DNA of 46,450 nucleotides from a virus, in the UHGV virus genome UHGV-1965195; one strand, given 5' to 3'. The position numbers were made by a program, and so were the translations under genes. The notes below the pieces were generated by a model. It saw only the letters and a program-made list of their open reading frames with translations. It was not told where the DNA came from and did no database searches. Within the stretch, counting starts at the first letter, position 1; every line of letters starts with the position of its first letter. Of this stretch, positions 9,671 to 46,450 are shown one piece after another.

Positions 9671-9859
9671 ATAGGATGCCTTTTATTGACATCCTCTACC
9701 CTATCCGCACTCGGGTACGCTGATTACACTAAATATAGATTGCTGAATCTATTTTTTGTTTGTTGTTCTGGCAGATCTGCGGATATCTGCGTTTTGTGAT
9801 ATCACTCGTAGCACTTCCGCAACATTCCGGAATTAAAATTTACTGCGATATGCTACGAA

Positions 9860-34503: not shown

Positions 34504-37500
34504 GTACGTTCTCCTTTCAGTAATTTCTTAAAATCTGTAATTCTTTGCTGTTCTGTCAGCATTGGAGCTGCTGTTTCTTTAATTAATTCTCTTCCATTCA
34601 GTGTTGTGCTTACTTCGATCGGACGTTTTGCCAGATCAGAAAGTCCTGCCACTGCACTCATAATCGCCTGATTCTGCTGCTGAAGCTTTCTGATTTCTGC
34701 GTTATCCATCTTGTACTGCATAACAGATGTTGCTGGACGATTTGCCACTCTGGATGCATTAAAAGCCATGACCTCTCGCATCCGTGCTGAAACAGCGGAC
34801 AGATCAATAGATTCCAGTGCTGCGTTTGAAATATTTCGGGAAGATTTTACAACTGACTTTTCTTCATCCTTAATACCCAACGCCAGACCTTTACTGAAGA
34901 ATTGACCAAATTCCCTTGTCTTTTTGGATGGGGAACGCTCATCAAGTTCCCTTTTCGCTGCTGCCAGTGCAGAAGAAGCAACTGCGATAGCTGCGGAAAT
35001 AGCCGCGGAGCTTCCAGCCGAAATACCATTGGCAAGACCATAGGAAAAATTCAATCCCTGATCGTATGCCTCGCTTTTCATTCCAACGCCCTTTAAACCA
35101 GATACCGCTCCGTCTCCCAGGCTTTTACTGGATGACTCCGCGTTTTTCTTTCCGGAATCAATCCCACTCTTTAAACCATCACCAAGTTTCTTTCCTTCCT
35201 GTTTTCCTTTTTCGGAAAGCTTGACATTTGACAATGCCACCGCTGCATTGCCGCCTAATGTAGATGCCGCCGCATTTACTGATCCAGAACCACCAACAAT
35301 TCCATTTGCAAGCGCGTTTGCAATCTGACTTCCCATTGCCTGCGCTTGTCCCGAAACATTTGCAGATGAAAGTCCTGATAAAGCCGCATTTTCCAATCCT
35401 GATGCAGCCGCCTGCACAACTGGGGCTTGACCGCTCAAAGAGGATGACAGTCCAAAACCTACGTTGTTTCCAAATCCTGCCGTAGCTGACAACATATCCA
35501 TGCCATTCAGTCCTTGTGGAATCTGACCGCCTAAGGAAGCCGCTGCCGTCAATACGGCATTGGAATTCGCATGCAACGCATCAATTAGAGACTGTGTTGC
35601 CTCACTTCCTTTGCTGGAAGGAACCGTTGTCGTATCTGTAGTACTTGCACCTGTATTGATCTCATTCACAGCGCTTTTTGCTGCTTCATTGATCGCAGTT
35701 TTTCCACTGTTTACAGAATTCGCAGTACTATCTGCCGCCTCTCTTCCTTTTTGAGCAGGAACTGTAGAAGTATCTGCCTCTGCTGCCCCTTCGCTAACAC
35801 CACCCTCGATAGCGTCTTTCGTGGCTTGCTTAACTGGTTCTTTTCCCTCTTGCACTGCATTCGCTGCTGCTTCAGTAGTTTCTTTTGCTTCTTGGGCTGC
35901 TGCTTCTGGATTGCCTGAGTTTCCGAGTAATTGATTGATTTCATTTTGCCAAGCTTCAATCTGAGCTGTGTTATTGGTAGTCCCCTTTTCGTACTCGATT
36001 TGAGCCATGAGCCACATTGCTCGACTGCCGTCTACCATCGTCTGAGTGATACCTGAATTACCATCCTCTGCTGCAAGGCGCATTTCTTCATATTTTTGTT
36101 GCCAAGTCTGCACCTGTTTAGAAAGTTCTGCTTCATTTTCTCCAGTAGATCGTATCAAACCGTCTGTCAGTGCTTTGATTGCAGCTTCCATATTGGCCGT
36201 TCCAGCTTCTGCTGCTCCCATTGCAGCTTCATAATTTGCAATAACAGCCGTGTATTCGTCATAAGCAATCTTAGCATCATCAAACGCTTTCTTAGCTTTT
36301 TCTAATTCTTCATTCGCTTCCATCTGCGCCTGTTGGAGTCGCATAATTTCAAAAGATCCTGCGGCTTGTTCCGCAGTCATAGAAGATTCCGCTTCTCTAA
36401 GTTCATCTGTTGCTTGCTTAGCCCTTTTCCTAACTTCGATATAATCATTGTATGCTCTGGCTAATTCATCCTCTGCTTCTGCCTGTTTTTTAACCGCTTC
36501 ATTAAAGTCATCTTCGTAAGCCAATAATATTGCTTCTGCTTTTTTCTTCCGGATGACCTCATCAATGGATTGCGTTAACTCACCATACTTCTGTATCACA
36601 CCATCTGTCGTTTCAATCTCTACGCCAAGTGCTTCGGATAATGTGGATGTAATAAAGGCTGCACGTTCCTCATATCTTTCCTTTATCTTTCCATTTTGGT
36701 CAACAATTCCCTGCAACTCATCCCATAGTTGCTGATAATAACCAAACTGCGTCTGAATTCCGGCAACTTCATCTTGTCTTGCAGCCTGAGTTTCTCTGAT
36801 TGCTTCTGCCTGCTCTGCCAGTTTTTTATTGGCTTTATCTGTAGCAGACTCCGCTTCTTTCTGCGTCAAAGCATAAACACCAAGACCTGCTGCCAGAGCT
36901 GCTACCGCAGAAATCACAAGACCAATCGGATTCGCTTTCATAGCAACGTTCCAAAGAGTTTGTGCTTTTGTGGCTAAATTCACCTTTCCTGTAAACATGC
37001 CAACAACTGCTTGCCCGGCTGTAAGTGTAGCGTTTGTTGCAACACCACTTTCCATAGCCAGAAGCTGTGCAGCATAGTAAGCATCCACTGCTGCAGAAGC
37101 GGTCTTCCATGTTTTCACACCTTTTTTTAATATAGATGTTGTTTCATTGACAACTTTGTACCCCTTAAATGCAGTAAAAGCCGCCGTTGCTGATGCTGCG
37201 ATCAAGTCCAGATTCTCTCCTGCAAAGTCCAGTGCCTTTGTCAGTGGAGGGAGCGCTTTATCAGCCAGATTTCCAACAGCATCTACTACATTACTTAAAG
37301 TATCAACCACTGTTTCTCCAGCTTCCCTCAAGCCACCGTCACTCAATGACTCTGCCACTGCATCAATCGCATCCTCAACCGGCTCTTGCAGTTTGGATGG
37401 TAACAGCTCTGCCAAACCGGATGCCATAGACTCCGCCACCTCTCCGGCCGCACCGAGAATTCTTCCTTTGTTCGAAGCAATTCCAGAAGCAAATGCTTCT

Positions 37501-38717
37501 ATAAAATCAACTGCTGTGTCTACCATTTCTGGGGCATGGGATGCTGCTTCTACTGCAAGATTTGCAAATTCATCACCTGCTGTCTGTATTGCTTCATTCA
37601 GACCACCGTTGTTGAAAGAATCTGTAATATTGTTGATGCTTTCTGTTGCTGTATTTGCTGCATTTTTCAGATTGTCTGCAACACTGTTATAAAACGCCAG
37701 ACCCAATGTTTCTGCTGATCCACTGAGCTGCTCCAACGCACCAGGTAGATTGTCCTGCATTGTTTCTGCTGCCTCTTGGGCTGCCCCATCACAGTTCTTA
37801 TAAGCATTTGTCAGCTCTCCAAGAGATCCCTCTCCCTCGTTAATCAATGCAAGCATACCGGACAATGCTTCTTGTCCATACAGGGTGACCAGATAATTGT
37901 TTTTCTGCTCGTCCGTCATCCCTTCTGTTGCCTGTCTGAGCATTCCAACCTGTTCCGTCAGGGATTTCATTTTCCCGTTGGAATCGTAGAAGGAAATTCC
38001 AAGTTCATCCATAGCCTCAGACATGTCTTTCGTTGGCTTTGAAAGCCGTGATAACGCTCCTCTTAAAGAAGTACCAGCCTGACTGCCATTCACTCCGGCA
38101 TTCGCCATGATTCCGATTGCCGCTGCTGTCTCTTCCAAACTAAGTCCTGCTGCCCTTGCAAGAGGAGCTATATACTTCATTGCCTCTCCGGTATCTGCTA
38201 CAGAGGAATTCGTACGGTTTGCATTCGCCGCCAGAACATCCGCAACGTGTGCTGCATCGGATGCCGCCAGTCCAAATCCTCTTAACGTTGATGCTGCAAT
38301 ATCCGAACTGCTCGCCAGATCTTCACCGGATGCCGCTGCCAGATTTAAAAGTCCCGGCATTGCATTCATGATCTCGGATGTGGTAAAACCAGCTGCTGCC
38401 AGATTCTCCATTCCCTCTGCTGCCTGACTAGCAGAAAATGAGGTATCAGCACCTAACTGCATTGCCTGTGCCTTTAATTGCTCGAATTCTTCTCCTGTTG
38501 CTCCGGAGATAGCCTTAACTCTAGACATCTGAGATTCAAAATCAGAACCCACCTTGATTGCCGCTGCTGCGACTCCACCAAGTGCTGCTGCCGTTCCCGT
38601 GATCGCTACCGTTGCCGCTTTCATCCCTTTTGCTGCTATACTCCCAAGTTTGGAAAGTCCTTTTTCTATCCCGGAAGAATCCAGATCTGTTTCAATTACA
38701 ACTTTTCCATCTGCCAT
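34500..38717 (-). CDS. Tail tape measure protein (TP901-family)
   Basis: 1405 aa. Ala/Gly-rich and helical. N-terminal region (GADTSFSASQAAEGMENLAAAGF...) typical of TP901-family tape measure proteins. GAGGTGGTGAG precedes the start. Confidence 0.85.
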   Translation of the reverse strand: MADGKVVIETDLDSSGIEKGLSKLGSIAAKGMKAATVAITGTAAALGGVAAAAIKVGSDFESQMSRVKAISGATGEEFEQLKAQAMQLGADTSFSASQAAEGMENLAAAGFTTSEIMNAMPGLLNLAAASGEDLASSSDIAASTLRGFGLAASDAAHVADVLAANANRTNSSVADTGEAMKYIAPLARAAGLSLEETAAAIGIMANAGVNGSQAGTSLRGALSRLSKPTKDMSEAMDELGISFYDSNGKMKSLTEQVGMLRQATEGMTDEQKNNYLVTLYGQEALSGMLALINEGEGSLGELTNAYKNCDGAAQEAAETMQDNLPGALEQLSGSAETLGLAFYNSVADNLKNAANTATESINNITDSFNNGGLNEAIQTAGDEFANLAVEAASHAPEMVDTAVDFIEAFASGIASNKGRILGAAGEVAESMASGLAELLPSKLQEPVEDAIDAVAESLSDGGLREAGETVVDTLSNVVDAVGNLADKALPPLTKALDFAGENLDLIAASATAAFTAFKGYKVVNETTSILKKGVKTWKTASAAVDAYYAAQLLAMESGVATNATLTAGQAVVGMFTGKVNLATKAQTLWNVAMKANPIGLVISAVAALAAGLGVYALTQKEAESATDKANKKLAEQAEAIRETQAARQDEVAGIQTQFGYYQQLWDELQGIVDQNGKIKERYEERAAFITSTLSEALGVEIETTDGVIQKYGELTQSIDEVIRKKKAEAILLAYEDDFNEAVKKQAEAEDELARAYNDYIEVRKRAKQATDELREAESSMTAEQAAGSFEIMRLQQAQMEANEELEKAKKAFDDAKIAYDEYTAVIANYEAAMGAAEAGTANMEAAIKALTDGLIRSTGENEAELSKQVQTWQQKYEEMRLAAEDGNSGITQTMVDGSRAMWLMAQIEYEKGTTNNTAQIEAWQNEINQLLGNSGNPEAAAQEAKETTEAAANAVQEGKEPVKQATKDAIEGGVSEGAAEADTSTVPAQKGREAADSTANSVNSGKTAINEAAKSAVNEINTGASTTDTTTVPSSKGSEATQSLIDALHANSNAVLTAAASLGGQIPQGLNGMDMLSATAGFGNNVGFGLSSSLSGQAPVVQAAASGLENAALSGLSSANVSGQAQAMGSQIANALANGIVGGSGSVNAAASTLGGNAAVALSNVKLSEKGKQEGKKLGDGLKSGIDSGKKNAESSSKSLGDGAVSGLKGVGMKSEAYDQGLNFSYGLANGISAGSSAAISAAIAVASSALAAAKRELDERSPSKKTREFGQFFSKGLALGIKDEEKSVVKSSRNISNAALESIDLSAVSARMREVMAFNASRVANRPATSVMQYKMDNAEIRKLQQQNQAIMSAVAGLSDLAKRPIEVSTTLNGRELIKETAAPMLTEQQRITDFKKLLKGERT

Positions 38718-38797
38718 TTACTCACCACCTCATGTTAAAAATTTGTATAAAAAGAGCACCTACCATTTCTGATAGATGCTCTGATTACTGTATTTAA

Positions 38798-38995
38798 TTA
38801 TGCACACTTTTCTTCTTGCAAGCACTGTTCTATTAAGAGTATTACACGCTCTGTAAAACCTCTGGTTTTCTCTGTTGCACTGTTCAGAACAGAACTCCTC
38901 CAGTCCTCATACTCTTGCTGTGTTAATTTCCTTGTTTCTCCCACGATCTCAGCAAGTTCCGGGATGTGATCTTCAATCAACTGTCTCTCTGTCAT
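38798..38995 (-). CDS. Hypothetical small protein immediately upstream of the tape measure gene
   Basis: Start at MTERQLIEDH... (65 aa). Acidic. Confidence 0.35.
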   Translation of the reverse strand: MTERQLIEDHIPELAEIVGETRKLTQQEYEDWRSSVLNSATEKTRGFTERVILLIEQCLQEEKCA

Positions 38996-38996
38996 G

Positions 38997-39419
38997 CTAC
39001 GCCACCTCACTACTTGCCAACTTCTTAGCAAACCGTTCTACAAGTTCCAAATGCTCTTCGTTTTCCATATTCCCTACAATCTTCACAATGGATTTCTTAC
39101 GATCACACTGCTCTGTATCTGGAAGTCTGTCACGTTTATCCAAATACCTGTATAAGATTGCTGTGATCTGACGTTTTGTGGCATAATCGCTAGAATTCAA
39201 CTGCGATAATAATTGAAGTAACTGATCGTTTCGTAATTCCTTATCCCTACTTACTTTTAATGCTCTCTGTCCTTGTATATATCCAAACTTGGACGCTGAA
39301 CAAATCTTATCGTACTTATCCGGTGCATTATTCTGCAAATCAAATAACTGCATTACTGTCAAATCGAATGACTGTGGAATTGATAAGTTTTCTCTCTTAA
39401 TTTTTTCATATAAATTCAT
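38997..39419 (-). CDS. Hypothetical protein
   Basis: Start at MNLYEKIKR... with AGGAGGTG upstream. 141 aa. Confidence 0.4.
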   Translation of the reverse strand: MNLYEKIKRENLSIPQSFDLTVMQLFDLQNNAPDKYDKICSASKFGYIQGQRALKVSRDKELRNDQLLQLLSQLNSSDYATKRQITAILYRYLDKRDRLPDTEQCDRKKSIVKIVGNMENEEHLELVERFAKKLASSEVA

Positions 39420-39420
39420 C

Positions 39421-40239
39421 TTACGCCACCTCCTGATATACAACTTTGCATTTATTTGTATTACCATTTGATAACCGATGCTCAATGAGTGTGGGATACC
39501 CATTTTCCTCCAGCCATTCTTTTACTTTCTGGAAAACAGAATCTTTATATTGAACAGTAACGCCGTCATGTCCATTCCTGCTATAAGCTGTCTTTACAAT
39601 TTCGTCCTCTGAAACATCCAACTTCTGAATGATAGCACTTACTGCCTTATCGTGTGGTCTGCCACTTTCCGATAAAATACCAAACTCTTTCGCCATCGTA
39701 GTACAATCCCACAAGACCGGAACTTCTGAAATCAGCGGCACTTTCACTGGATACCCGTTGTCTGAATAAATACGGATAATTTCAGCAGCTATGTACTTAG
39801 AGTCTACTCCTGCATCATTGAGAGCACCTTTGATGTTCTTTACCATCTGATTGACGGATGGGAGTTTTTCTTTGTGAGTAGGTTTCTTCTTTGGCATTTC
39901 GTAAGAACCTGTCTTGCGGAGTGTTGGAAGAACTTCATCTGTGACCCAATCTGTAAACTTTTCAGCATCTGGTTTACGACTCTTAAATACTAACTTGTAC
40001 ACTCCACTTTCTGTAAGGAAATTCTCACCTGCGTTATTCAATTTTCGGAAGTCGGTTAAACCGACATCTGAATTTTTCACCTTAATAACTTGCTTTTTAT
40101 TCATTTTACTCATGTGGTCTTTGACTGTGCTCATTGCCATATCTAAGCACGCTCCAACATGATAAGGATTGAATAAAATTTCTCCATTCAATTCAAATAC
40201 TTCTACTTCGTGTCCTTCAAAAATCATCAACTCATTCAT
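39421..40239 (-). CDS. Bro-N domain protein (phage antirepressor-like)
   Basis: N-terminus MNELMIFEGHEVEVFELNGEILFNPYHVGACLDM...SGVYKLVFKSRKPDAEKFTDWVTDEVLPTLRKTG is a textbook Bro-N domain. Confidence 0.7.
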   Translation of the reverse strand: MNELMIFEGHEVEVFELNGEILFNPYHVGACLDMAMSTVKDHMSKMNKKQVIKVKNSDVGLTDFRKLNNAGENFLTESGVYKLVFKSRKPDAEKFTDWVTDEVLPTLRKTGSYEMPKKKPTHKEKLPSVNQMVKNIKGALNDAGVDSKYIAAEIIRIYSDNGYPVKVPLISEVPVLWDCTTMAKEFGILSESGRPHDKAVSAIIQKLDVSEDEIVKTAYSRNGHDGVTVQYKDSVFQKVKEWLEENGYPTLIEHRLSNGNTNKCKVVYQEVA

Positions 40240-40356
40240 ACTATCATTCTCCTTTTAAATTTTCTTTGCAAGGAGCTTCCATCTATGATAGAATATTTCA
40301 TAGAGGAAGTTCCTCGTGTGATATAGAAGTTGCAATCTATGGTAGGGGCGCAACTT

Positions 40357-40539
40357 CTATTTTTTTAGTTCTTCGTCGATTTTTTCATTAAGCCATTCTG
40401 ATTTTGTCTTTTGCTGCTCAGATAATTTTTGCTCAAATTTCAACATTTTTTTCTTATCTACAGCTACACTAAATGTCTTCTGTGTTTCCCTTCTGGCTTT
40501 CATGTAATCGGCTCTGCTTTTCTCCGCGATTGTTCTCAC
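40357..40539 (-). CDS. Small basic protein, possible autoregulated DNA-binding protein. Start uncertain (GTG, or internal ATG at MKARRE).
   Basis: 60-aa ORF. Its upstream region carries two copies of the TTACGCGTAA-type palindrome flanking an AT-rich -10-like sequence (40549-40600). Confidence 0.3.
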   Translation of the reverse strand: MRTIAEKSRADYMKARRETQKTFSVAVDKKKMLKFEQKLSEQQKTKSEWLNEKIDEELKK

Positions 40540-40812
40540 CTCTTTTCGTTACGCGTTACATATAATATATTACTGTTACGCGTAATTGTCAAGAGGTTTC
40601 TCAAAATTTTTCCACCCTACCTTATGGAATTAAAATAAGACACAGCATTTCGCCATGTCTTTCTGTTCTTTCCAGGGAGATCAGGAGCATACCCTGAAAG
40701 GACTTCTCCCCGATATTCAATTAACTTCATTTATGTTCTCCTTAAAATTGGGTATAAGAAAACCACCTACTTATGCAGGTGGCACCGTTCGTATTTTGTA
40801 TTTCATAAACTA

Positions 40813-41364
40813 CTATGATGTTTTTGGAGTTATACTAAATAACGGACTCGGAAAAGATACTTGCTTAATTTTGTAATCACCTATTTCTAACTCCGTAATT
40901 TCATTTGACACCATACTGGCTATCTGCTCTATTTCATCATCAGAAAACTTAAATTCTGACAGATATACAATTCCTGTAAGCAATTCTGCATATTCATCAA
41001 GTTCCCCTTCTCCTACCGATAAGTATAACCTCTTCAATTTTTCTTTATCCAGATCATATGTAAAGGCTAATTCCACTCCAGTAGCACTGTTGTACGATAC
41101 AGTGAAAATATTTTCATCCACTTTCGCATCCTTAAGTTGAAGTTCCGGACTCTCGACAACACCTGCTCTCAGCATATTTTCTGGCAACTGCGTAGTTACA
41201 ATCTCCGCAATATTGCTTGTAATCTCTGCTTGATTATCGAGTCTTTCTTTTTCCAATCCATTTGTTTGCTTAATATTTTCAGTGCCTTCTTTCTTATTGC
41301 TACATCCAACTGCTAAACTGCAAGACATACAAATAAGCAATAGAGCACAAAGTATTCTATTCAT
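40813..41364 (-). CDS. Lipoprotein
   Basis: Signal peptide with lipobox MNRILCALLLICMSCSLAVGC-S. 183 aa. Confidence 0.55.
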   Translation of the reverse strand: MNRILCALLLICMSCSLAVGCSNKKEGTENIKQTNGLEKERLDNQAEITSNIAEIVTTQLPENMLRAGVVESPELQLKDAKVDENIFTVSYNSATGVELAFTYDLDKEKLKRLYLSVGEGELDEYAELLTGIVYLSEFKFSDDEIEQIASMVSNEITELEIGDYKIKQVSFPSPLFSITPKTS

Positions 41365-41524
41365 AATTTTTCTCCTGTATTTTATATTGCATCATTATGT
41401 GTAAAGGCGGATAATTCGTATCTTACTTCTGCGAAAAAATCTGACTGGGGAATTTTCCCCAGTGAAAGTTGTTTGCAATATCTACGAATATCTTTTATCA
41501 AGTCATTGTGTGCTTTTTCTATAC

Positions 41525-42943
41525 TTACTGTGCAACGATCTGCGCTCTGCTTAATTTTAAATACTGTCCATCCTGTACTGTCAAATACACTTCTCCTTCG
41601 AAGTTGTCATTTGCAATTATCGTTCCTAAATCTCCTGTTGAGTTAGCGGTAACTTCATAATAGCCGCCATTCGCAGCTGATACTTTATACTCTCCTGCCG
41701 GAATATCTTTTCCTACAAGATACATTCCATCTGGATATGTACCATTAACCGGAGTGAATGCAGCCGCCTCACTGACGGGAACTGCCGTTCCGTCAAACTG
41801 GAAATACTGTCCGTCTTGTACTGTAACATAGGCTCTATTCCTATAATTGTCATTGCTGATGATTGATTCCAAACTTCCGCTGGAATCGGCTGTCACTGCA
41901 TAATAGCCGCCAGAAGATGTGATAAGATATTCTCCCGCCGGCATGTCTGTACCTATTTTGTACATTCCGGTTTGATATCCTGTCTGAATAGCTGATGGAT
42001 TTTCCAACTCTTCTGTTAAATCTTCATAATCACTTTTTGCTTTGCTTCGGATCTCTCCATTCAAGATATCTGCAAATTCTTGTATTTCCTCTTCTGAATA
42101 TTTGTCATTCAAACGGAGCAAAACATTTTCAGATACAATCCGGTATGCGAAACTATCAAGAGAAAGAATGTCCAATGATTCTAAATAATCAACTCTTGCC
42201 ACAGCAGCATCCCTACTATCGAAAATTTCTATTGTTCCGCTTAATGGTTCTTCTTTTGAGTATTCCTCTTCTATTCTTGAATCAGCAAAATTTCCTTTTT
42301 CTATATATTCGTGATTTGAACCATTCGGATCGGTTTCATCCGTATAAATAATATCATATTCTATCGGTATTCCTGCATCCTTCAATTCTTCTAATATACT
42401 CTTTACGTTAACAATTTTCGCTGATTGCAAAATTAGTTCCATGTCACGTTCGTAGTTTTTTTCGCTTTTTTCATCAATTCCAAATATGAAATCGCCAAGT
42501 TCTAATGTAAATACATGTCCAACATAATGGCGCTCATTTTCATAAAAAGAAATATCCGCAACTTTAGCTTTTATATCACCATAACTTTCATCATATATGC
42601 GCTTTATCGCAAACGGATAGAGTGAACCAGTTATTTCTGTTATATGACTCTTGTATGCATCATCATCCAATTTATCTATATCATTTTTGTTATATAATAC
42701 TTTTAAATAGACATCGTCCGACTTAAAACATCGAACCTGTTCCTCTTCCCCAAAACTTTCTATTGTAGACTCATTCCAATTTGATGGAACTTGAAACTTC
42801 ATATCTTTAATTTGTACAGAAATATTTGAAGATTCATCAAAATCAACGCTCTCCACCTCACCAGCATCTTTCTTCTCCCCGCATCCTGTCAGCATCCCCA
42901 CACAAAGAACTGCTGCCAGCAAGACACTTAGTACTCTCTTCAT
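41525..42943 (-). CDS. Lipoprotein with a duplicated about 65-aa C-terminal domain. Candidate superinfection-exclusion protein.
   Basis: Signal peptide with lipobox MKRVLSVLLAAVLCVGMLTGC-G. C-terminal tandem repeat G[MY]Y.[IV]G.D[MI]PAGEY......GGYY.VTA.S.G.L..II.NDN.....Y.TVQDGQY. 472 aa. Confidence 0.55.
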   Translation of the reverse strand: MKRVLSVLLAAVLCVGMLTGCGEKKDAGEVESVDFDESSNISVQIKDMKFQVPSNWNESTIESFGEEEQVRCFKSDDVYLKVLYNKNDIDKLDDDAYKSHITEITGSLYPFAIKRIYDESYGDIKAKVADISFYENERHYVGHVFTLELGDFIFGIDEKSEKNYERDMELILQSAKIVNVKSILEELKDAGIPIEYDIIYTDETDPNGSNHEYIEKGNFADSRIEEEYSKEEPLSGTIEIFDSRDAAVARVDYLESLDILSLDSFAYRIVSENVLLRLNDKYSEEEIQEFADILNGEIRSKAKSDYEDLTEELENPSAIQTGYQTGMYKIGTDMPAGEYLITSSGGYYAVTADSSGSLESIISNDNYRNRAYVTVQDGQYFQFDGTAVPVSEAAAFTPVNGTYPDGMYLVGKDIPAGEYKVSAANGGYYEVTANSTGDLGTIIANDNFEGEVYLTVQDGQYLKLSRAQIVAQ

Positions 42944-43086
42944 AACCTTCCTCCTACCCTATATGCTTTACCACATACTCATTATACCGTGAGGACTGTG
43001 GAATCGCAAGGATGGAATATGGTGGAGAGATCGCCACCTCATGCTTTATTTCATGATAACGTGGTAATCTCATCACTACGTTTAAA

Positions 43087-43120
43087 ATAAAATACCGCCG
43101 GACATCCAGCGGTTAAATCA
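43087..43120 (-). terminator. Rho-independent terminator downstream of the repeat-containing segment
   Basis: Minus-strand RNA ACCGC-UGGAUGUCCG-GCGGU followed by AUUUUAUUUU. Confidence 0.5.
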
Positions 43121-43363
43121 TTCATATTCAAGGATAAGAAGATATTCGGTGGGTGTGCCCCTTCCCACATTTCTTTTGACCACTTGGGTGCGTAGCAGCA
43201 CAATCTCTACTTCAAATATCTTGTCATATTTCTTTACAAAGCAAGAAGTTATCCGGCAGGCGTCGCCTCTCCTGCATCTCTTTTGACCACTTGGGTGCGT
43301 GGTTGCAACGAATTTTACCACCTCGAATAACTTCCTGCTTATTGTATTCAAATTATACAACAT
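43118..43363 (-). CDS. 81-aa ORF of doubtful coding status. Contains two 22-bp direct repeats whose conservation is at the nucleotide level.
   Basis: ATG immediately follows the upstream stop. The repeat tcttttgaccacttgggtgcgt occurs at 43172-43193 and 43279-43300 (107 bp apart, hence in different frames). Followed by a terminator. Confidence 0.3.
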   Translation of the reverse strand: MLYNLNTISRKLFEVVKFVATTHPSGQKRCRRGDACRITSCFVKKYDKIFEVEIVLLRTQVVKRNVGRGTPTEYLLILEYE

Positions 43364-43774
43364 CTATTCCTTTTTGTAAAGAATTGTTTTGTTCCTCAAA
43401 TAGTTTTGCAGTCTTTTTTCACTAATCTCCCAACATGAAATTACTGAATTTTTATAATTCGGATCATCATTTGAAGTACATATTCTCAATACCATTTGAG
43501 CATATTCATTTCCTGTTTTGATCTTCTTTACAACTAACCCCGTATTTTTATGCTTATCCTTTATAATAAGATCCGGTTCCTGTATAATATCTGACAAATA
43601 ATCAATCACTTCTTTATAGGCCTCAGGGTGCCTATCCAATATATGTTGCATTTGATTCTCTGTAATAATGACATCATCTGTAACAATATCTTCTGTGATA
43701 CACCTATAAATATTACGATTTATTTTTCCTACTAAATGCACTTCAACAGCCTCTTTCGTCTTGAATACATTCAT
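43364..43774 (-). CDS. Hypothetical protein (136 aa) with a conserved-looking QMQHILDRHPEAY motif. Candidate toxin or nuclease-like accessory protein.
   Basis: No family recognised. Sits in the accessory island between the Bro-N gene and the repeat element. Confidence 0.4.
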   Translation of the reverse strand: MNVFKTKEAVEVHLVGKINRNIYRCITEDIVTDDVIITENQMQHILDRHPEAYKEVIDYLSDIIQEPDLIIKDKHKNTGLVVKKIKTGNEYAQMVLRICTSNDDPNYKNSVISCWEISEKRLQNYLRNKTILYKKE

Positions 43775-43854
43775 TATATCAGAATTTAGGGTTTACGCAA
43801 TATTCTTTTCTACGGCAGGTAATAATCTGAGTAGCGCCGAATTTTCGGCTCTAT

Positions 43855-44574
43855 TCAAAACTCTTCCGCCATCTTCCTTACTTCCCGATAAATCTCTTTA
43901 TACGGAATTTTCTTATCCATCAGTTTCCGAATTTTCATCTTAACCAATGTTTCTAGCGATTTTAACTCTAAAAGTGTTTCTTGTGAGATATCATCACGTT
44001 GACCGCCATGCAATCCAACTTTGCTATTTATCAATTTTGTAAAGATCATGTAGTATAGATCTGCATTCTTACTTCCCTGCTCTTTTGCATACTCCACAAA
44101 GAGTTTAATCTGGTCTGTTTCATATCGTCTTGCTTGCTTAGATTCATTGCGAACTCCAAGCCACTTGTTATCTTTTTCAGAAGCTATGTAATAGCCATTC
44201 TTTTTAATTGATTGAATAATGTCGTACACCCAATCAAAGTATTGGTCAGCTACCTCTGTTGTTGACCACCTTATTACATCTAAAATGCCTCTTTCGTCAT
44301 ACATAAAAATACTTGTCTTCTTTCCTAAATCTCTTGGCCTCGGGGACAAATTGTCACCCACCACTTCTACATAGCGTTGCTGTAATTTTTCGTAATGTCT
44401 TAAATGAATTTTCTTTATCGCATCTTGTGGATTTTTATACTGTAGCGCATATCCAATCTGTGTTCTGCTCATATAGATGTTGTTTTCCTCATCTACATAA
44501 AAATCACATCTAGTCCCTAAAAATTCTCCATGTTTCACAAGTTTTAGTTTCATACTATTTCGTATCCTTTCCAC
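43855..44574 (-). CDS. Bro-N / KilA-N-like domain protein (antirepressor-like)
   Basis: N-terminus KLKLVKHGEFLGTRCDFYVDEENNIYMSRTQIGYALQYKNPQDAIKKIH...ERGILDVIRWSTTEVADQYFDWVYDIIQSIKKNGYY fits the Bro-N pattern. 239 aa. Confidence 0.5.
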   Translation of the reverse strand: MERIRNSMKLKLVKHGEFLGTRCDFYVDEENNIYMSRTQIGYALQYKNPQDAIKKIHLRHYEKLQQRYVEVVGDNLSPRPRDLGKKTSIFMYDERGILDVIRWSTTEVADQYFDWVYDIIQSIKKNGYYIASEKDNKWLGVRNESKQARRYETDQIKLFVEYAKEQGSKNADLYYMIFTKLINSKVGLHGGQRDDISQETLLELKSLETLVKMKIRKLMDKKIPYKEIYREVRKMAEEF

Positions 44575-44714
44575 TTAAATTTTTACATTGATGATAAATC
44601 CAAGCAAAAATAGAGCGGAATTTTCCGCTGCACTTATTATGGACTCTATATATGTGGACTCCTCAAAATTTAGGAGTCGAAATTCAATACTCTCTGCTGA
44701 CTAGCAATTTCAAG

Positions 44715-44748
44715 TATCAAAATAAGGTGCGGCACTTCGCCACACCTT
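44715..44748 (-). terminator. Rho-independent terminator after the tail-chaperone genes
   Basis: Minus-strand RNA AAGGUG-UGGCGAAGUGCCG-CACCUU followed by AUUUUGAUACUU. A second palindrome AGCGGAAttTTCCGCT at 44609-44624 is followed by CUAUUUUUGC on the minus strand. Confidence 0.45.
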
Positions 44749-44760
44749 TACACACACTCT

Positions 44761-45387
44761 CTACGTTCGTACGTTTTTCGTACGAAGCAATTCACTCACA
44801 TCGCCGCCATTGAGAAGCGCATCTTCAATCTGTCTTGTCCGATCATCCATAGCGGGTGCCTGTTCCAGACCGTAATACTTCTGCATTGCCCGGTAGAACT
44901 CCCTCTCCTCTTTTGAGAGGTTCTTATTCGACACGTCCATTGTACGGTACTCAATGACCTTTGACAGCCTGGTATCTTCTCCCAGATTCTCCAGAAGCAG
45001 CATAAACTTCCACCAGTGCATCTCTTCTGCCTGCAAGTCAATTCCGTACTGCTGGATGAAACCGGCATAGATCAGTCCCGCATCCTCTTGAAAGTCAAAC
45101 GGTTGCTTATCATTGACCCCTGCGATCTTCCGCGGGAATTTCTTCTTTGACTGCTCCTTGCCACAGGAAAAGAACCAAAACATCTGATCCACATGTTCTT
45201 CCGTGAAATAATCACAATCCCTGTAAAACAACAGCAGCACTTTCAGTAAAGAATCTCCCGTCAATTCTTCTACGCTTTCTATGATTTCATTGCATTTTAA
45301 AACGGTGCGGAAGTCCCAATTTACAGACCACTCCGCACCATTCACGATCAAAAACTCTGGAAATTTTTCTATTAAGAGATTCATCAT
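44761..45387 (-). CDS. Tail assembly chaperone (phage Gp15-family)
   Basis: 208 aa. Motifs WDFRTVLKCNEII, LIYAGFIQQYGIDLQAEEMHWWKFMLLLENLGEDTRLSKVIEYR match my recollection of the Gp15 family. Second gene after the major tail protein. ATGA-coupled to the upstream chaperone gene. Confidence 0.55.
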   Translation of the reverse strand: MMNLLIEKFPEFLIVNGAEWSVNWDFRTVLKCNEIIESVEELTGDSLLKVLLLFYRDCDYFTEEHVDQMFWFFSCGKEQSKKKFPRKIAGVNDKQPFDFQEDAGLIYAGFIQQYGIDLQAEEMHWWKFMLLLENLGEDTRLSKVIEYRTMDVSNKNLSKEEREFYRAMQKYYGLEQAPAMDDRTRQIEDALLNGGDVSELLRTKNVRT

Positions 45388-45737
45388 TTTTCTACAGGAT
45401 CATTTTCCATTGATAACATTTTCAATCTTCCCATGATCTCGTTGTACTGATTATCCTGTCTGATCTGCTCTGTGACCAACTGCTCATAAACTGCCATGCA
45501 AGTAAGCAGGTCATTTCCTTTTCCGCATACACAATCACCCGTACCCTCTCCAAATACAACATCAAACATCTGCTTCACTCTGCCACACAGAAATCTATTC
45601 TGCTCCAGTTCTGTTCCTTCTGGCAGCTCTTCTGCAACATGCTTCATCTTCTCTAACTCAGCTCTATATCGTTCTTTCAACTCTGGATTCTCCAGATCAT
45701 ACAGGTTGAATTCCAATTCTACTCCATTGATAATCAT
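45384..45737 (-). CDS. Tail assembly chaperone (gpG-like)
   Basis: 117-aa acidic protein directly downstream of the major tail protein gene. Confidence 0.5.
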   Translation of the reverse strand: MIINGVELEFNLYDLENPELKERYRAELEKMKHVAEELPEGTELEQNRFLCGRVKQMFDVVFGEGTGDCVCGKGNDLLTCMAVYEQLVTEQIRQDNQYNEIMGRLKMLSMENDPVEK

Positions 45738-45813: not shown

Positions 45814-46341
45814 TTATACTTCCCCCACCATAAATTTCTTTGTAGATGTATCAAACTGTCCATCTTCCCAGTCAGATACACCAAGTAAATTTCCAGAGCC
45901 CTGAATCTCACCATCGTTGTCCGAGAAATCTGACACCTCGATGGCTACTTTTCTTCTCTTCGCATAAAACTTATTCTGCTGTTCTGCCACAGGTTTTTCC
46001 ATGAACACCTTCACATAATAAGTTTCTGCATCCGTCCCTGTCTTTTCATTTTCTCCGATATCTGCAATAAATTCGATTGCTTTTTCGGAGCGGATCAGGT
46101 CAAACTCCAATGGTGCGGTCCATTCATAAGAACCGATTCTCTGTGTTGCTGACTTCTGATTGACATATCTTTTGGAAGTTGGCTGCGCAGATGGAGAATC
46201 ATCCAACTGAGTCACTCCAAATCCCAGAAGCTCATAAGTCCCGCTCAGATCTTTAGAAACATCCAGATATCCCGGATGCTGCCACCTTCCTACGACACCA
46301 GTTTCACCTGTTTCCGCAAAAAACTGAATATTCATTTTCAT
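45814..46341 (-). CDS. Major tail protein
   Basis: Start at MKMNIQFFAETGETG with GGAGGT 9 nt upstream. 175 aa. First gene of the tail block. N-terminus typical of siphovirus major tail proteins. Confidence 0.65.
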   Translation of the reverse strand: MKMNIQFFAETGETGVVGRWQHPGYLDVSKDLSGTYELLGFGVTQLDDSPSAQPTSKRYVNQKSATQRIGSYEWTAPLEFDLIRSEKAIEFIADIGENEKTGTDAETYYVKVFMEKPVAEQQNKFYAKRRKVAIEVSDFSDNDGEIQGSGNLLGVSDWEDGQFDTSTKKFMVGEV

Positions 46342-46348
46342 ACTTTCA

Positions 46349-46450
46349 CTACCTCCGTTTATAATAAATAAATTGACATTGTATCCTGTACTGGCACTTC
46401 GTCTCCTGTGCGTCATACAGATATCCGTCTGTTGTTGCCCGAATAGATTT
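46349..46450 (-). CDS. Possible 3' end of the gene that begins at 327..1, if the sequence is circular (33 codons ending in TAG at 46351-46349)
   Basis: The reading frame entering from position 1 continues in frame across the 46450/1 junction as KSIRATTDGYLYDAQETKCQYRIQCQFIYYKRR*. The TAG overlaps the GGAGGT ribosome-binding site of the major tail gene. Confidence 0.35.
   Translation of the reverse strand, partial: KSIRATTDGYLYDAQETKCQYRIQCQFIYYKRR

What the first reader, a model, noticed from the sequence alone, without database searches (positions are those of the whole stretch)
38798..44760. About 6-kb terminator-insulated accessory island splitting the tail-assembly chaperone genes from the tape measure gene
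In siphoviruses the chaperone genes are normally immediately followed by the tape measure gene. Here the two chaperone genes are followed by two terminator-like hairpins (44609-44624 and 44724-44748) and then nine ORFs before the tape measure gene: a Bro-N protein, an unknown 136-aa protein, a repeat-containing segment, two lipoproteins, a small basic protein with palindromic operators, a second Bro-N protein and two small proteins. Lipoproteins plus Bro-N/antirepressor-like genes are typical moron cargo: superinfection exclusion, anti-defence or defence. Their insertion inside the tail operon is unusual and suggests a hot spot with its own transcription units.
Basis: partly seen in the sequence, partly recalled or inferred. 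Interest (0 to 1): 0.7.

Follow-up and report, generated by a model that had tools for sequence, protein, structure and literature searches.

The report
Accessory gene island inside tail operon
A temperate phage of the gut bacterium Mediterraneibacter gnavus carries a 6-kb swappable block of non-essential genes at the same junction where the first phage 'moron' was described. The island is ordinary in kind, but one cassette always pairs a toxin-like RNase with a structured RNA of unknown function, which gives a testable idea of what that RNA does.

Summary
Between the Gp15-family gene (44761-45387) and the tape measure gene (34500-38717) lie 6,043 bases. They have the lowest G+C of the genome (36.8% against 42.6%) and are bounded by two conserved terminator hairpins.

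Comparison with 50 related contigs shows a recombination hot spot:
- 26 of 34 moderately related phages have the two genes 12-33 nt apart.
- All 16 close relatives carry a mosaic insert of 2.1-6.5 kb.

In kind this is a compound moron at the locus where the term was coined (HK97 gene 15), so it is a new member of a known kind.

- The 'unknown 136-aa protein' is a solo PBECR2 RNase of the BECR fold.
- The 'repeat segment' is two tandem skipping-rope RNAs (Rfam RF02924) with their own promoter and terminator.
- The small basic protein plus the second Bro-N gene form a regulator-antirepressor cassette.
- The lipoproteins share one signal peptide, with interchangeable mature domains.

Every intact PBECR2 relative with downstream sequence (49/49 viral loci, 67/73 genomic loci, 1/1 GenBank record) is followed 22-33 nt later by skipping-rope RNA. 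About 0.94 Mb of related phage DNA without PBECR2 has none. This suggests, without proving, that the RNA is the RNase's antidote or partner.

The parts
45384..45737 (-). Left flank, not part of the island: DUF6673 protein of 117 aa, the first of two genes between the major tail protein and the tape measure gene (putative tail assembly chaperone).
   Evidence: PF20378, E 1.2e-25. Present in every relative, directly upstream of Gp15. Its stop codon overlaps the Gp15 start (ATGA).
44761..45387 (-). Left flank: Phage_Gp15 family protein of 208 aa (putative second tail assembly chaperone).
   Evidence: PF06854, E 9.5e-42. It is 12-33 nt from the tape measure gene in 26 of 34 moderately related contigs.
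44724..44748 (-). T_left, the intrinsic terminator-like hairpin that marks the left edge of the island.
   Evidence: Stem of 10-11 bp followed by a T-run; -17.5 kcal/mol, z -4.9. Conserved in all 16 close relatives; sequences diverge right after ...ATTTTRATACTT.
44614..44629 (-). Second, weak terminator-like hairpin upstream of the first Bro-N gene.
   Evidence: -8.6 kcal/mol, z -2.3. Found only in relatives that carry the Bro-N variant of slot 1.
43855..44574 (-). Bro-N protein 1 (the likely start is the ATG at 44553, giving 232 aa), an antirepressor-like regulator. In other relatives this slot holds a Rha-family gene instead.
   Evidence: PF02498, E 1.3e-6; PHROG anti-repressor families. The alternative occupant is Phage_pRha, E 4e-28. 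Called as 232 aa in public records.
43364..43774 (-). Solo PBECR2 protein, a predicted BECR-fold RNase. The ORF is 136 aa; a 125-aa product from GTG 43741, preceded by AAGAGG, is equally plausible.
43352..43380 (-). Promoter of the skipping-rope RNAs. The -35 element TTTACA lies in the last codons (L-Y-K) of PBECR2, and TATAAT follows 17 nt later.
   Evidence: 11 of 12 consensus matches. The same arrangement is conserved upstream of the RNA in about 35 diverse PBECR2 loci.
43248..43331 (-). Skipping-rope RNA, copy 1.
   Evidence: RF02924, 59.4 bits (gathering score 36.7), E 7.6e-12. The structure is supported by covariation across 42 distinct sequences.
43141..43220 (-). Skipping-rope RNA, copy 2.
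   Evidence: RF02924, 55.4 bits, E 1.2e-10. It shows compensatory changes relative to copy 1.
43094..43113 (-). Terminator of the skipping-rope transcription unit.
   Evidence: 8-bp stem (6 G-C) followed by a T-run; -14.5 kcal/mol, z -4.1.
42981..43009 (-). Promoter-like site upstream of the 472-aa lipoprotein gene.
   Evidence: TTGCGA-17-TATAAT, 10 of 12 matches, in an intergenic position.
41525..42943 (-). Lipoprotein of 472 aa: signal peptide with lipobox LTGC, then two C-terminal repeats of about 80 aa. This is the variable cargo slot.
   Evidence: Sequence. Rv1352/Rv1906c domain, two copies, E 3e-19. PHROGs of unknown function. In relatives the same signal peptide, MKRVLSVLLAAVLCVGMLTGCG, precedes mature parts of 121, 270, 368 or 472 aa in total length.
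41444..41463 (-). Terminator after the 472-aa lipoprotein gene.
   Evidence: -13.7 kcal/mol, z -3.5.
40813..41364 (-). Lipoprotein of 183 aa (lipobox AVGC); matches no known family.
   Evidence: Sequence. No credible match in Pfam (one weak sub-threshold hit only), and none in PHROGs, NCBIfam, PADLOC or PDB. Present in 8 of 16 close relatives.
40762..40783 (-). Terminator after the 183-aa lipoprotein gene. Its 3' half resembles T_right.
   Evidence: -14.9 kcal/mol. Matches the T_right motif with 3 mismatches.
40617..40730 (-). 37-aa ORF with a good ribosome-binding site. It contains a hairpin (40637-40661) that resembles T_left. Function unknown; possibly a gene remnant.
   Evidence: Read from the sequence. 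Hairpin -12.6 kcal/mol. No Pfam match.
40545..40592 (-). Promoter TTGACA-17-TATATT with two ACGCGT-centred palindromic sites (40576-40585 and 40549-40558) that overlap and follow it.
   Evidence: 11 of 12 consensus matches. TTACGCGTAA and TAACGCGTAA lie 27 bp apart.
40357..40539 (-). Small basic protein, 60 aa as an ORF or 48 aa from the internal ATG. Probably a ribbon-helix-helix regulator of the operon that follows.
39421..40239 (-). Bro-N protein 2 of 272 aa, antirepressor (Ant)-like.
   Evidence: PF02498, E 2.4e-14; phrog_2011 'anti-repressor Ant', E 3e-45.
38997..39419 (-). 140-aa protein of unknown function; its start is 1 nt after the Bro-N 2 stop codon.
   Evidence: no family match. 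About 68% identical in most relatives, and replaced by an unrelated 95-aa ORF in others.
38798..38995 (-). 65-aa protein of unknown function, the last gene of the island.
   Evidence: Present in 5 of 16 close relatives, the others carrying a 47-aa alternative or no gene in this slot.
38753..38782 (-). T_right, the strongest terminator-like hairpin. It marks the right edge of the island and ends 36 nt before the tape measure start codon.
   Evidence: 13-bp stem, -19.1 kcal/mol, z -6.5. Conserved in all 16 close relatives, and with compensatory changes in the 1.2-kb inserts of more distant relatives. A 58-nt copy lies at 3557-3614.
34500..38717 (-). Right flank: tape measure protein of 1405 aa.
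   Evidence: PF10145 on the same product in public records. N-terminal 400 aa are 93-98% identical in close relatives.

Best explanation
The segment 38718-44760 is a compound moron. It is an array of horizontally exchanged, self-contained cassettes that has built up at one recombination hot spot, the junction between the Gp15-family (putative chaperone) gene and the tape measure gene. The host genome is a complete 46.45-kb temperate siphovirus of Mediterraneibacter gnavus.

Shown here:
- The junction is empty in most related phages and holds a different mosaic in every close relative.
- The island is bounded by two conserved terminator hairpins and has the lowest G+C of the genome.
- It holds at least five units, each with a consensus promoter, a terminator, or both:
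  1. a Bro-N gene
  2. a solo PBECR2 BECR-fold RNase gene
  3. two skipping-rope RNAs, with a promoter embedded in the last codons of PBECR2 and their own terminator
  4. two lipoprotein genes, each followed by its own terminator
  5. an operon made of a small, probably ribbon-helix-helix, protein, a Bro-N antirepressor-like protein and two small proteins; its promoter overlaps palindromic sites.

Inferred, not shown:
- In the lysogen the late operon is silent. The cassettes are transcribed from their own sigma-70-type promoters, and the terminators stop read-through into the tail genes.
- The lipoproteins sit on the outer face of the membrane and most likely block DNA entry by related phages. 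This is by analogy with HK97 gp15, at the same locus, and with lipoprotein Ltp of phage TP-J34.
- The small protein represses its own promoter and so gates the antirepressor, as Arc gates Ant in P22.
- The skipping-rope RNAs are the obligate partner of PBECR2, most likely an antidote that holds the RNase in check.
- During lytic growth, late transcription has to pass six or seven terminators to reach the tape measure gene. That needs either antitermination or a low read-through that also sets the dose of the distal tail proteins.
For: Hot spot:
- 60 contigs encode a Gp15 relative. The distance from Gp15 to the tape measure gene is 12-33 nt in 26 of 34 contigs at 58-67% identity. It is about 200 nt (a 51-aa zinc-ribbon ORF) in 2, 1,174 nt (one lipoprotein) in 5, and 4,649 nt in 1. 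It is 2,109-6,504 nt in all 16 contigs at 93-100% identity.
- The cargo maps differ from contig to contig and fall into slots.
- Named phages agree. The genes are adjacent in Acutalibacter phage Fontainebleau and 206 nt apart in Ruminococcus phage RG-TP1. Clostridium phage phiCD111 has one inserted DUF4236 gene.

Boundaries: the T_left and T_right sequences are conserved while the DNA between them changes.

Composition. Terminators.

Temperate and complete:
- integrase, CI-like repressor and Rha genes are present
- a 142-aa gene closes across the ends of the window
- the PBECR2 protein is identical to one on a 4.13-Mb M. gnavus contig, and the same island occurs in many samples.

Cargo identities.

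Linkage of PBECR2 and the RNA.

Pairing of the small protein with an antirepressor-type gene.

Precedent for the site: PMC3594210.
Against: - There are no expression data, so prophage expression is inferred only.
- Promoter-like sites as a class are no more frequent than in shuffled sequence. Only the skipping-rope promoter is backed by conservation.
- No island protein matches a known defence or exclusion family (PADLOC), and the two lipoproteins have no characterised relatives.
- All island genes point the same way as the late operon, so they may also, or mainly, be expressed late.
- The strongest terminator lies 36 nt upstream of an essential gene, and I found no antiterminator. The only late regulator seen is a sigma-70 region 4 / DUF1492 protein. 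How the tape measure gene is transcribed is therefore unexplained.
Confidence: 0.8

Rival explanations
1. The island genes are conserved parts of the tail module. One version holds that 38798-39419 encode the true tape measure chaperones and that the Gp15 and DUF6673 genes do something else.
For: They lie inside the tail operon, on the same strand. The last two ORFs are small and sit directly upstream of the tape measure gene.
Against: Twenty-six of 34 related contigs have no gene at all between Gp15 and the tape measure gene. DUF6673 and Gp15 are present in all of them. The 140-aa and 65-aa ORFs are replaced by unrelated ORFs in several relatives at 97% identity, and L014 and L016 lack them altogether.
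Confidence: 0.02
2. The island is an assembly chimera, or an independent mobile element (transposon, satellite or integrative element) that inserted into the tail operon.
For: A sharp drop in G+C and sharp boundaries.
Against: The same arrangement recurs in 16 independent IMG/VR contigs, in Logan and ENA assemblies, and in an NCBI M. gnavus chromosome-sized contig. The island has no transposase, integrase or recombinase gene. No flanking direct or inverted repeats were found. The variation is cassette by cassette, not presence or absence of one unit.
Confidence: 0.03
3. The cassettes are late-expressed accessory genes that act during lytic infection (host takeover, anti-defence, competition with co-infecting phages). 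On this view they are not prophage-expressed conversion genes, and the hairpins mainly tune mRNA stability or the dose of the distal tail proteins.
For: - All genes are co-oriented with the late operon.
- In 65 of 122 relatives PBECR2 is the C-terminal domain of a MuF-type head protein, which is a virion-delivered effector according to PMC5512222 and PMC5576092.
- Essential genes lie downstream of the terminators, so late RNA polymerase must read through the island in any case.
- A copy of T_right also precedes the scaffold and capsid genes.
Against: Strong consensus promoters sit in intergenic positions, each cassette has its own terminator, G+C is low, and lipoproteins are present. All of these are classic moron features (PMC3594210). 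The two readings do not exclude each other.
Confidence: 0.2
4. The linkage between PBECR2 and the skipping-rope RNA is structural rather than functional. The RNA is an independent phage small RNA or 3' element that merely uses the end of the PBECR2 ORF as its promoter, and it has its own unrelated role.
For: - In a pattern-based sample of 80 skipping-rope loci, only 14-17 have PBECR2 upstream. The others lie upstream of a 91-aa gene plus terminase, inside tail modules, and elsewhere.
- The -35 element of the RNA promoter lies inside the last PBECR2 codons, which ties the two together physically.
Against: - The RNA is kept at a fixed distance of 22-33 nt in every intact PBECR2 locus with downstream sequence. 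This holds down to 28-31% protein identity and across both solo and MuF-fused architectures.
- There is no convincing hit in 0.94 Mb of related phage DNA without PBECR2.
- PBECR2 fragments with the RNA persist behind a different toxin domain. This looks like the displaced toxin-immunity modules of polymorphic toxin loci.
Confidence: 0.35

Closest known systems
HK97 gene 15 moron (Juhala et al. 2000; Cumby et al. 2012; reviewed in PMC3594210)
   Same: The insertion site is the same, between the tail assembly chaperone gene(s) and the tape measure gene. Both have deviating base composition and their own promoter and terminator, and both are absent from related phages. HK97 gp15 is a membrane protein that blocks DNA entry, which is the role I infer for the lipoproteins here.
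   Different: HK97 carries one small gene. This island carries nine ORFs plus two RNA genes in at least five units, amounting to 13% of the genome, in a Gram-positive host. There is no sequence relationship, and no function has been tested here.
Salmonella phage P22 sieA / immI region (mnt, arc, ant), embedded in the late operon. This comparison is from my own knowledge and was not checked with a tool.
   Same: An accessory block inside a late structural operon that combines an exclusion function with a small ribbon-helix-helix repressor controlling an antirepressor. Late transcription must read through it.
   Different: The antirepressor-like proteins here belong to the Bro-N family, not the P22 Ant family. 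The RHH fold of the small protein is only weakly supported. No Q-like antiterminator was identified.
MuF polymorphic toxins of temperate phages (Jamet et al. 2017, PMC5576092) and PBECR domains of polyvalent proteins (Iyer et al. 2017, PMC5512222)
   Same: The PBECR2 domain here is 78% identical to the C-terminal domain of MuF-type head proteins in related gut phages. It has a BECR RNase toxin fold. The partner locus lies immediately downstream, where immunity genes sit.
   Different: The window copy is a solo 125-136-aa gene in a tail-operon moron, not a MuF fusion in the head module. The downstream slot holds a structured RNA, not a conserved small ORF. Gene callers place a spurious 67-81-aa ORF over the RNA.
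Type III toxin-antitoxin systems (ToxIN, CptIN, TenpIN). From my own knowledge.
   Same: A small endoribonuclease-type toxin is genetically locked to tandem copies of a non-coding RNA that ends in a terminator. The RNA is expected to be made in excess.
   Different: The toxin fold is BECR, not ToxN. The RNA units are 80-97-nt multi-stem structures in 1-4 copies rather than 34-36-nt repeats. The order is toxin then RNA, and the RNA has its own promoter. Processing and inhibition have not been tested.
Skipping-rope RNA motif, Rfam RF02924 (Weinberg et al. 2017, PMC5737381)
   Same: Both window copies score well above the gathering threshold and are followed by an intrinsic terminator, as the family description states.
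   Different: The paper reports an association with a nearby protein domain, but names it only in a supplement that I could not read. The strict downstream position, the shared promoter and the tandem arrays next to PBECR2 are what I measured here.
Lipoprotein Ltp of Streptococcus phage TP-J34, a superinfection exclusion protein that targets the tape measure protein. From my own knowledge.
   Same: A prophage-encoded lipoprotein of a Gram-positive siphovirus, proposed here as the working model for the two island lipoproteins.
   Different: No homology was detected or directly tested. Ltp is encoded in the lysogeny module, not the tail operon.

Membership tests
Moron (in the sense of Juhala/Hendrix) | Lies between two genes that are adjacent in related phages | tested here: met
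   Gp15 and the tape measure gene are 12-33 nt apart in 26 of 34 related contigs, and close together in two named phages (overlapping in Fontainebleau, 206 nt apart in RG-TP1).
Moron (in the sense of Juhala/Hendrix) | Own promoter and terminator | tested here: met
   Prediction only. Intergenic sites with 10-11 of 12 consensus matches lie at 43380-43352, 43009-42981 and 40592-40564. Six stable hairpins are each followed by a T-run. The RNA promoter is conserved in about 35 diverse loci. Promoter-like sites as a class are not enriched over shuffles.
Moron (in the sense of Juhala/Hendrix) | Base composition differs from the flanking genes | tested here: met
   G+C 0.368 against 0.461 (tape measure gene) and 0.434 (upstream tail genes). 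It is the lowest 6-kb window of the genome.
Moron (in the sense of Juhala/Hendrix) | Expressed from the repressed prophage | not testable with these tools
   Needs RNA-seq or reporter fusions in a lysogen.
Tail assembly chaperone pair (gpG/gpGT-like) | Two genes between the major tail protein and tape measure genes | tested here: met
   DUF6673 and Phage_Gp15 hold this position in the window and in all relatives.
Tail assembly chaperone pair (gpG/gpGT-like) | Programmed -1 frameshift joining the two ORFs | tested here: inconclusive
   The Gp15 frame is -1 relative to DUF6673, and the ORFs overlap by ATGA. I saw no canonical slippery heptamer near the end of the first ORF, and Gp15 has its own ATG.
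Skipping-rope RNA (Rfam RF02924) | Score at or above the curated gathering threshold | tested here: met
   59.4 and 55.4 bits against 36.7.
Skipping-rope RNA (Rfam RF02924) | Multi-stem consensus structure supported by covariation | tested here: met
   Across 42 distinct sequences, 95.7% of cells are paired, against 27-45% when partners are slid. Fifteen of 23 pairs show double changes, and no shuffle of 500 reaches the observed values. The alignment was fitted to the model, which favours the structure.
Skipping-rope RNA (Rfam RF02924) | Followed by a Rho-independent terminator | tested here: met
   43113-43094, -14.5 kcal/mol.
PBECR2 (Pfam PF18810), BECR-fold RNase | Profile score above the curated cut-off | tested here: met
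   43 bits against 27.1, E 6.3e-11.
PBECR2 (Pfam PF18810), BECR-fold RNase | [quoted passage not shown] | tested here: met
PBECR2 (Pfam PF18810), BECR-fold RNase | [quoted passage not shown] | tested here: met
   H44, H49 and S110 are invariant in alignments of 7 and 33 sequences; K108 is invariant in the first and nearly so (at least 90%) in the second. Their catalytic roles are inferred.
PBECR2 (Pfam PF18810), BECR-fold RNase | Ribonuclease activity | not testable with these tools
   Needs biochemistry.
MuF polymorphic toxin-immunity module | N-terminal MuF / minor head domain | tested here: not met
   The window gene is solo. Sixty-five of 122 relatives are fusions of at least 300 aa.
MuF polymorphic toxin-immunity module | Small immunity ORF directly downstream of the toxin domain | tested here: not met
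   No conserved ORF lies downstream; scaffold, capsid or variable genes follow. The slot holds skipping-rope RNA.
Type III toxin-antitoxin system | ToxN-type toxin preceded by short tandem RNA repeats and a terminator | tested here: not met
   The fold is BECR. The RNA lies downstream with its own promoter, and the units are 80-97 nt and structured.
Type III toxin-antitoxin system | The RNA binds and inhibits the toxin and is processed by it | not testable with these tools
   Needs co-expression and biochemistry.
RHH repressor-antirepressor cassette (P22 arc-ant type) | Small ribbon-helix-helix DNA-binding protein | tested here: inconclusive
RHH repressor-antirepressor cassette (P22 arc-ant type) | Palindromic operators overlapping the promoter of the cassette | tested here: met
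   TTACGCGTAA lies between the -35 and -10 elements, and TAACGCGTAA follows the -10. The site count alone is not significant: 8 of 100 shuffles give as many matches.
RHH repressor-antirepressor cassette (P22 arc-ant type) | Antirepressor-type gene immediately downstream | tested here: met
   Bro-N / PHROG 'Ant' gene in the window. A Bro-N, Rha or ORF6N-type gene follows the small protein in at least 51 of 78 loci. The activity itself is untested.
Known anti-phage defence systems (PADLOC-DB) | Profile match of any island protein | tested here: not met
   No credible match for the eight proteins.

The most novel reading that the evidence does not exclude
The skipping-rope RNA may be the RNA antidote, or obligate RNA partner, of PBECR2-family BECR RNase toxins. 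It is a structured RNA of about 84 nt with four helices. It is transcribed from a constitutive-looking promoter buried in the last codons of the toxin gene, and it occupies the slot where MuF polymorphic toxins keep their protein immunity gene. The many skipping-rope copies elsewhere in phage genomes would then be orphan immunity elements against RNases delivered by competing phages. That would give a function to an orphan RNA class flagged in 2017 as likely to do something 'biochemically challenging', and it would add an RNA-based immunity mode to polymorphic toxin systems.
Probability: 0.3. Interest if true: 0.8.

Novelty: new member of a known kind. Interest (0 to 1): 0.5.

Why it matters
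As an island, this is a clear and unusually large example of a known phenomenon. It shows that the chaperone / tape measure junction, the type locality of the moron concept in a lambdoid coliphage, is also a hot spot in siphoviruses of human-gut Lachnospiraceae. It carries cassette-swapped lipoproteins and antirepressor modules that probably shape phage-phage competition in M. gnavus, a species linked to inflammatory bowel disease.

The part that could matter more is the strict linkage of PBECR2 and the skipping-rope RNA.
- It turns an RNA family of unknown function into a direct experiment: is the RNase toxic, and does the RNA rescue growth?
- It warns that the 'small immunity ORFs' annotated downstream of this toxin type are probably mis-called RNA genes.

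A strong terminator directly upstream of essential late genes, present twice in the genome, also points to an uncharacterised read-through mechanism in these phages.

Tried and rejected
1. Defence or exclusion homology. PADLOC, NCBIfam, Pfam, PHROGs and PDB sequence searches gave nothing informative for the lipoproteins or for the 140-aa and 65-aa proteins.
2. The 37-aa ORF at 40617-40730 as a HicB remnant. This was a resemblance from memory. There is no Pfam match, so I dropped it.
3. Programmed frameshift between DUF6673 and Gp15. I saw no canonical slippery site.
4. Skipping-rope RNA as a cis-acting antitermination element that lets late transcription cross the island. I rejected this as the main role, because 11 of 16 close relatives carry the island and its terminators without any skipping-rope RNA.
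5. T_right as a late promoter motif. The motif GGTAGGTGCTNTTTTTATAC occurs only at 38745-38764 and 3557-3576, with a degenerate copy at 40752-40771. It is absent upstream of the terminase genes, so nothing supports a shared late promoter.
6. Skipping-rope RNA as a tRNA. ARAGORN and the Rfam tRNA model find only tRNA-Asn at 9597-9671. The cloverleaf-like connectivity (linkers of 2, 1, 4 and 0 nt) is a resemblance of topology only.
7. Membership in type III toxin-antitoxin systems. Fold and gene order do not fit.
8. Other weak Rfam matches in the island (ctRNA_pT181, GibS). All fall far below their gathering scores.
I repeated it with the closer alignment A5.
10. The supplement of Weinberg et al. 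2017, which names the protein associated with skipping-rope RNA, is not held. Priority for the PBECR2 link could not be settled.

Full report
**1. What is there**

All genes of the region lie on the minus strand. In the direction of transcription the order is:
- major tail protein (45814-46416; phrog_3099)
- a DUF6673 protein (45384-45737)
- a Phage_Gp15 protein (44761-45387)
- 6,043 bases of island
- a 1405-aa tape measure protein (34500-38717; PF10145 on the identical-length product in public records)
- Dit (33031-34503) and a 1310-aa collagen-repeat tail fibre.

The window is a complete, circularly closed genome of 46,450 bp. A 142-aa gene runs across the window ends and matches the gene at that position in an independent contig. 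The phage is temperate, with an integrase, a CI-like HTH protein and Rha. It belongs to Mediterraneibacter (Ruminococcus) gnavus. The Dit and fibre DNA is 84-92% identical to R. gnavus phages, and the PBECR2 protein is identical to one on a 4.13-Mb M. gnavus contig.

**2. The observation**

The nine ORFs, the repeat segment and the hairpins are all present. There are seven terminator-like hairpins on the coding strand between the Gp15 stop codon and the tape measure start codon. Six are stable (-12.6 to -19.1 kcal/mol, z -3.5 to -6.5). The 12.4-kb region scanned has 19 terminator-like sites against 7.5 +/- 2.9 in shuffles. Promoter-like sites are not enriched as a class. Island G+C is 0.368 against 0.426 for the rest of the genome, and it is the lowest 6-kb window of the genome.

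**3. Is it an insertion?**

I fetched 60 IMG/VR contigs that encode a Gp15 relative and mapped all window proteins onto them.

Among the 34 contigs whose Gp15 is 58-67% identical and which contain both genes:

| Gp15 to tape measure gap | Contigs | Content |
|---|---|---|
| 12-33 nt | 26 | none |
| about 200 nt | 2 | a 51-aa zinc-ribbon ORF |
| 1,174 nt | 5 | one lipoprotein gene |
| 4,649 nt | 1 | Bro-N, lipoprotein, HTH, Bro-N |

For L025 and L026 the apparent 252-nt gap is an insertion inside the tape measure gene; its start codon is at +13.

All 16 contigs at 93-100% identity carry an insert of 2,109-6,504 nt, and the maps differ from contig to contig. Named phages agree. The genes are adjacent in Acutalibacter phage Fontainebleau and 206 nt apart in Ruminococcus phage RG-TP1, and Clostridium phage phiCD111 has one DUF4236 gene between them.

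The boundaries are sharp:
- On the left, the Gp15 stop codon and the hairpin 44748-44724 are conserved, and sequences diverge after ...ATTTTRATACTT.
- On the right, TAAATACAGTAATCAG, the hairpin 38782-38753 and the ribosome-binding site of the tape measure gene are conserved, whatever gene precedes them.
- The 1.2-kb inserts of the more distant phages end with the same hairpin, carrying compensatory changes.

The genes are not conserved tail components, and 38798-39419 are not the chaperones.

**4. Architecture of the island**

Across relatives the cargo falls into slots:
1. A Bro-N gene or a Rha-family gene.
2. Optionally, PBECR2 plus skipping-rope RNA. This is present in 5 of 16 relatives and in the window.
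3. One or two lipoproteins. They share the signal peptide MKRVLSVLLAAVLCVGMLTGCG, but their total lengths are 121, 270, 368 or 472 aa. HTH, SHOCT or other small genes are sometimes added.
4. A small regulator, either the 60-aa protein here or a different 63-aa protein plus a 232-aa protein.
5. A Bro-N/Ant-like gene.
6. Two small ORFs in alternative versions.

The minimal island (L014, 2.1 kb) is a Rha-family gene, a small ORF and a lipoprotein. Cassettes also occur elsewhere. The small regulator with Bro-N 2 lies 8 kb downstream in L053, and Bro-N 1 with PBECR2 and the RNA lies in an unrelated context in L072.

**5. The 136-aa protein**

It matches PBECR2 (PF18810) above the curated cut-off, with weaker PBECR3 and MuF_C matches. 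An AlphaFold2 model (pLDDT 88.3) finds BECR-fold RNase toxins as its best structural neighbours: CdiA-CT NC101, BrnT, colicin D and RelE. H44, H49 and S110 are invariant and K108 nearly so. This fits the His plus Ser/Thr pattern described for PBECR domains (PMC5512222).

It is 78% identical to the C-terminal domain of 464-593-aa MuF-type head proteins in other gut phages. Of 122 relatives, 65 are such fusions and about 44 are solo. Many database homologues are 125 aa. That matches a GTG start at 43741 preceded by AAGAGG, with a TTGCGT-16-TATAAT site just upstream (read).

**6. The repeat segment**

It consists of two tandem skipping-rope RNAs (RF02924; 59.4 and 55.4 bits, gathering score 36.7) followed by a terminator. 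The family was described in 2017 as one of four motifs with features suggesting a 'sophisticated biochemical function'. The paper reports no self-cleavage, a 3' terminator, and an association with a nearby protein domain that is named only in a supplement (PMC5737381). I could not read that supplement. No later functional paper turned up. On 42 distinct sequences collected here, the structure shows strong covariation.

**7. Linkage of the RNase and the RNA**

- Within the Gp15 contigs, a covariance model built from the window copies hit only the five contigs that carry PBECR2.
- I then searched for PBECR2 relatives independently of the RNA. All 49 viral loci, at 100% down to 28% identity to the window protein, have one to three skipping-rope RNAs on the same strand. 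The RNA starts 22-33 nt after the stop codon where this can be measured. In one locus it is cut by the contig end.
- In one genome per species, 67 of 73 loci have the RNA, in one to four copies. These come from Lachnospiraceae and other Clostridia. The six misses are contigs that end at the gene, or truncated gene fragments.
- The single match in the GenBank phage collection also has it.
- As a control, 58 related phage loci without PBECR2 (0.94 Mb) give no convincing hit; the best is 19.9 bits at E 0.044.
- The promoter of the RNA is conserved. TTTACA lies within the final L-Y-K codons of PBECR2, and TATAAT follows 17 nt later.
- No conserved protein ORF follows the RNA. Gene callers place a 67-81-aa ORF over it.

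The reverse does not hold. Of 80 loci found with a skipping-rope sequence pattern, only 14-17 have PBECR2 upstream. The rest lie upstream of a 91-aa gene and the terminase, inside tail modules, or elsewhere. Some loci keep only a PBECR2 C-terminal fragment plus the RNA, once behind a glutamine-deamidase toxin domain.

This asymmetry is the pattern of toxin-immunity pairs: the toxin always comes with the RNA, the RNA is often alone, and divergent tandem copies and displaced fragments occur. In MuF polymorphic toxins the immunity gene is expected directly downstream (PMC5576092). I therefore favour an antidote or partner role for the RNA, at about 0.3 for the antidote role specifically. The alternative is that the RNA is an independent small RNA whose promoter happens to overlap the gene end. 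The system is not a type III toxin-antitoxin system by fold or gene order.

**8. The small basic protein and Bro-N 2**

**9. How it most likely works, and what stays open**

The best reading is a stack of morons. In the lysogen they are expressed from their own promoters and insulated by terminators. They provide envelope lipoproteins (probably exclusion of related phages), gated antirepressors, and an RNase-RNA pair.

The open problem is late expression. The strongest terminator of the region ends 36 nt before the essential tape measure gene. A 58-nt copy of it (3557-3614, 78% identical) follows a second small moron and precedes the scaffold and capsid genes. I found a sigma-70 region 4 / DUF1492 late regulator but no antiterminator. 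Read-through is therefore inferred, not explained.

**10. Novelty**

The site and the kind are classical: HK97 gene 15 is at the same junction (PMC3594210). The island is a new, large and composite member of that kind. The strict PBECR2 / skipping-rope pairing is the element worth following up.

Noticed in passing
window 3557-3913 (minus strand): A second small moron lies in the head module, directly after the minor capsid gene. It has a strong promoter-like site (3913-3885), a 63-aa zinc-ribbon ORF (3660-3851), G+C of 0.32 and two hairpins. The second hairpin (3593-3566) and its flanks are a 58-nt copy, 78% identical, of the island's right-edge terminator. A 51-aa zinc-ribbon ORF also fills the Gp15 / tape measure junction in L030 and L054.
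   Followed up: partly
window 8670-9500 (minus strand): A third moron-like unit lies between the tRNA / late regulator region and the terminase genes. It is a 255-aa protein with a hydrophobic N-terminus (8705-9472) in the lowest-G+C kilobase of the genome (0.32). It has its own promoter-like site (9499-9471) and a hairpin plus T-run just after the stop codon. No family match.
   Followed up: partly
window 38745-38764, 3557-3576, 40752-40771: Three moron-terminating hairpins share the motif GGTAGGTGCTNTTTTTATAC (0, 0 and 3 mismatches; none expected by chance). The hairpin at 40661-40637 likewise resembles the left-edge terminator at 44748-44724. Related terminators may travel with the cassettes, or may serve as recombination joints.
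   Followed up: partly
window 43118-43363; L300 8538-8741: ORF finders and public gene calls place a 67-81-aa 'protein' across the skipping-rope RNAs. Small 'immunity ORFs' annotated downstream of PBECR2-type MuF toxins may be such artefacts.
   Followed up: partly
L130 196-881; L088 (oriented coordinates: PBECR2 fragment 4553-4720, RNA from about 4743): A skipping-rope RNA is preceded only by a C-terminal fragment of PBECR2. In L130 this lies downstream of an ORF with a glutamine-deamidase toxin domain (PF15644). It looks like toxin-domain replacement that left an orphan fragment plus RNA.
   Followed up: partly
L074-L133 (about 38 loci), L101-L142 (10 loci): Skipping-rope RNAs without PBECR2 recur at two other fixed places: about 110 nt upstream of a 91-aa gene followed by the large terminase, and in tail modules about 1.1 kb upstream of a Gp15-family gene.
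   Followed up: partly
window 24628-25659 (plus strand); L001 6683-7324: A DUF4236 protein is encoded in the lysogeny module of this phage. In Clostridium phage phiCD111 a gene of the same family is the single gene inserted between Gp15 and the tape measure gene.
   Followed up: no
window 19726-19995 (ORF 19533-20099, minus strand): About twelve tandem 18-nt repeats encode the hexapeptide SG(D/N)A(W/Q)V inside a 188-aa early-region protein.
   Followed up: partly
window 3836-5473 (minus strand): The 545-aa minor capsid protein has a Phage_min_cap2 domain (residues 1-362) followed by about 180 residues that contain an HEATH (HExxH) motif. This could be a metallopeptidase domain of the polyvalent-protein type. 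It has no PBECR domain and no skipping-rope RNA after it.
   Followed up: no
window 9597-9671 (minus strand): A tRNA-Asn (GTT) gene lies between the late regulator and the packaging genes.
   Followed up: yes
window 29099-33031 (minus strand): The 1310-aa tail fibre carries several collagen-like Gly-X-Y stretches and four repeats of a module of about 70 aa. Together with Dit, it is the only part of this region with DNA-level similarity (84-92%) to cultured R. gnavus phages.
   Followed up: no
window 40617-40730 (minus strand): A 37-aa ORF with a good ribosome-binding site lies between the second lipoprotein gene and the small-regulator promoter. It has no family match. Its resemblance to the HicB N-terminus comes from memory only and is unsupported.
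   Followed up: yes
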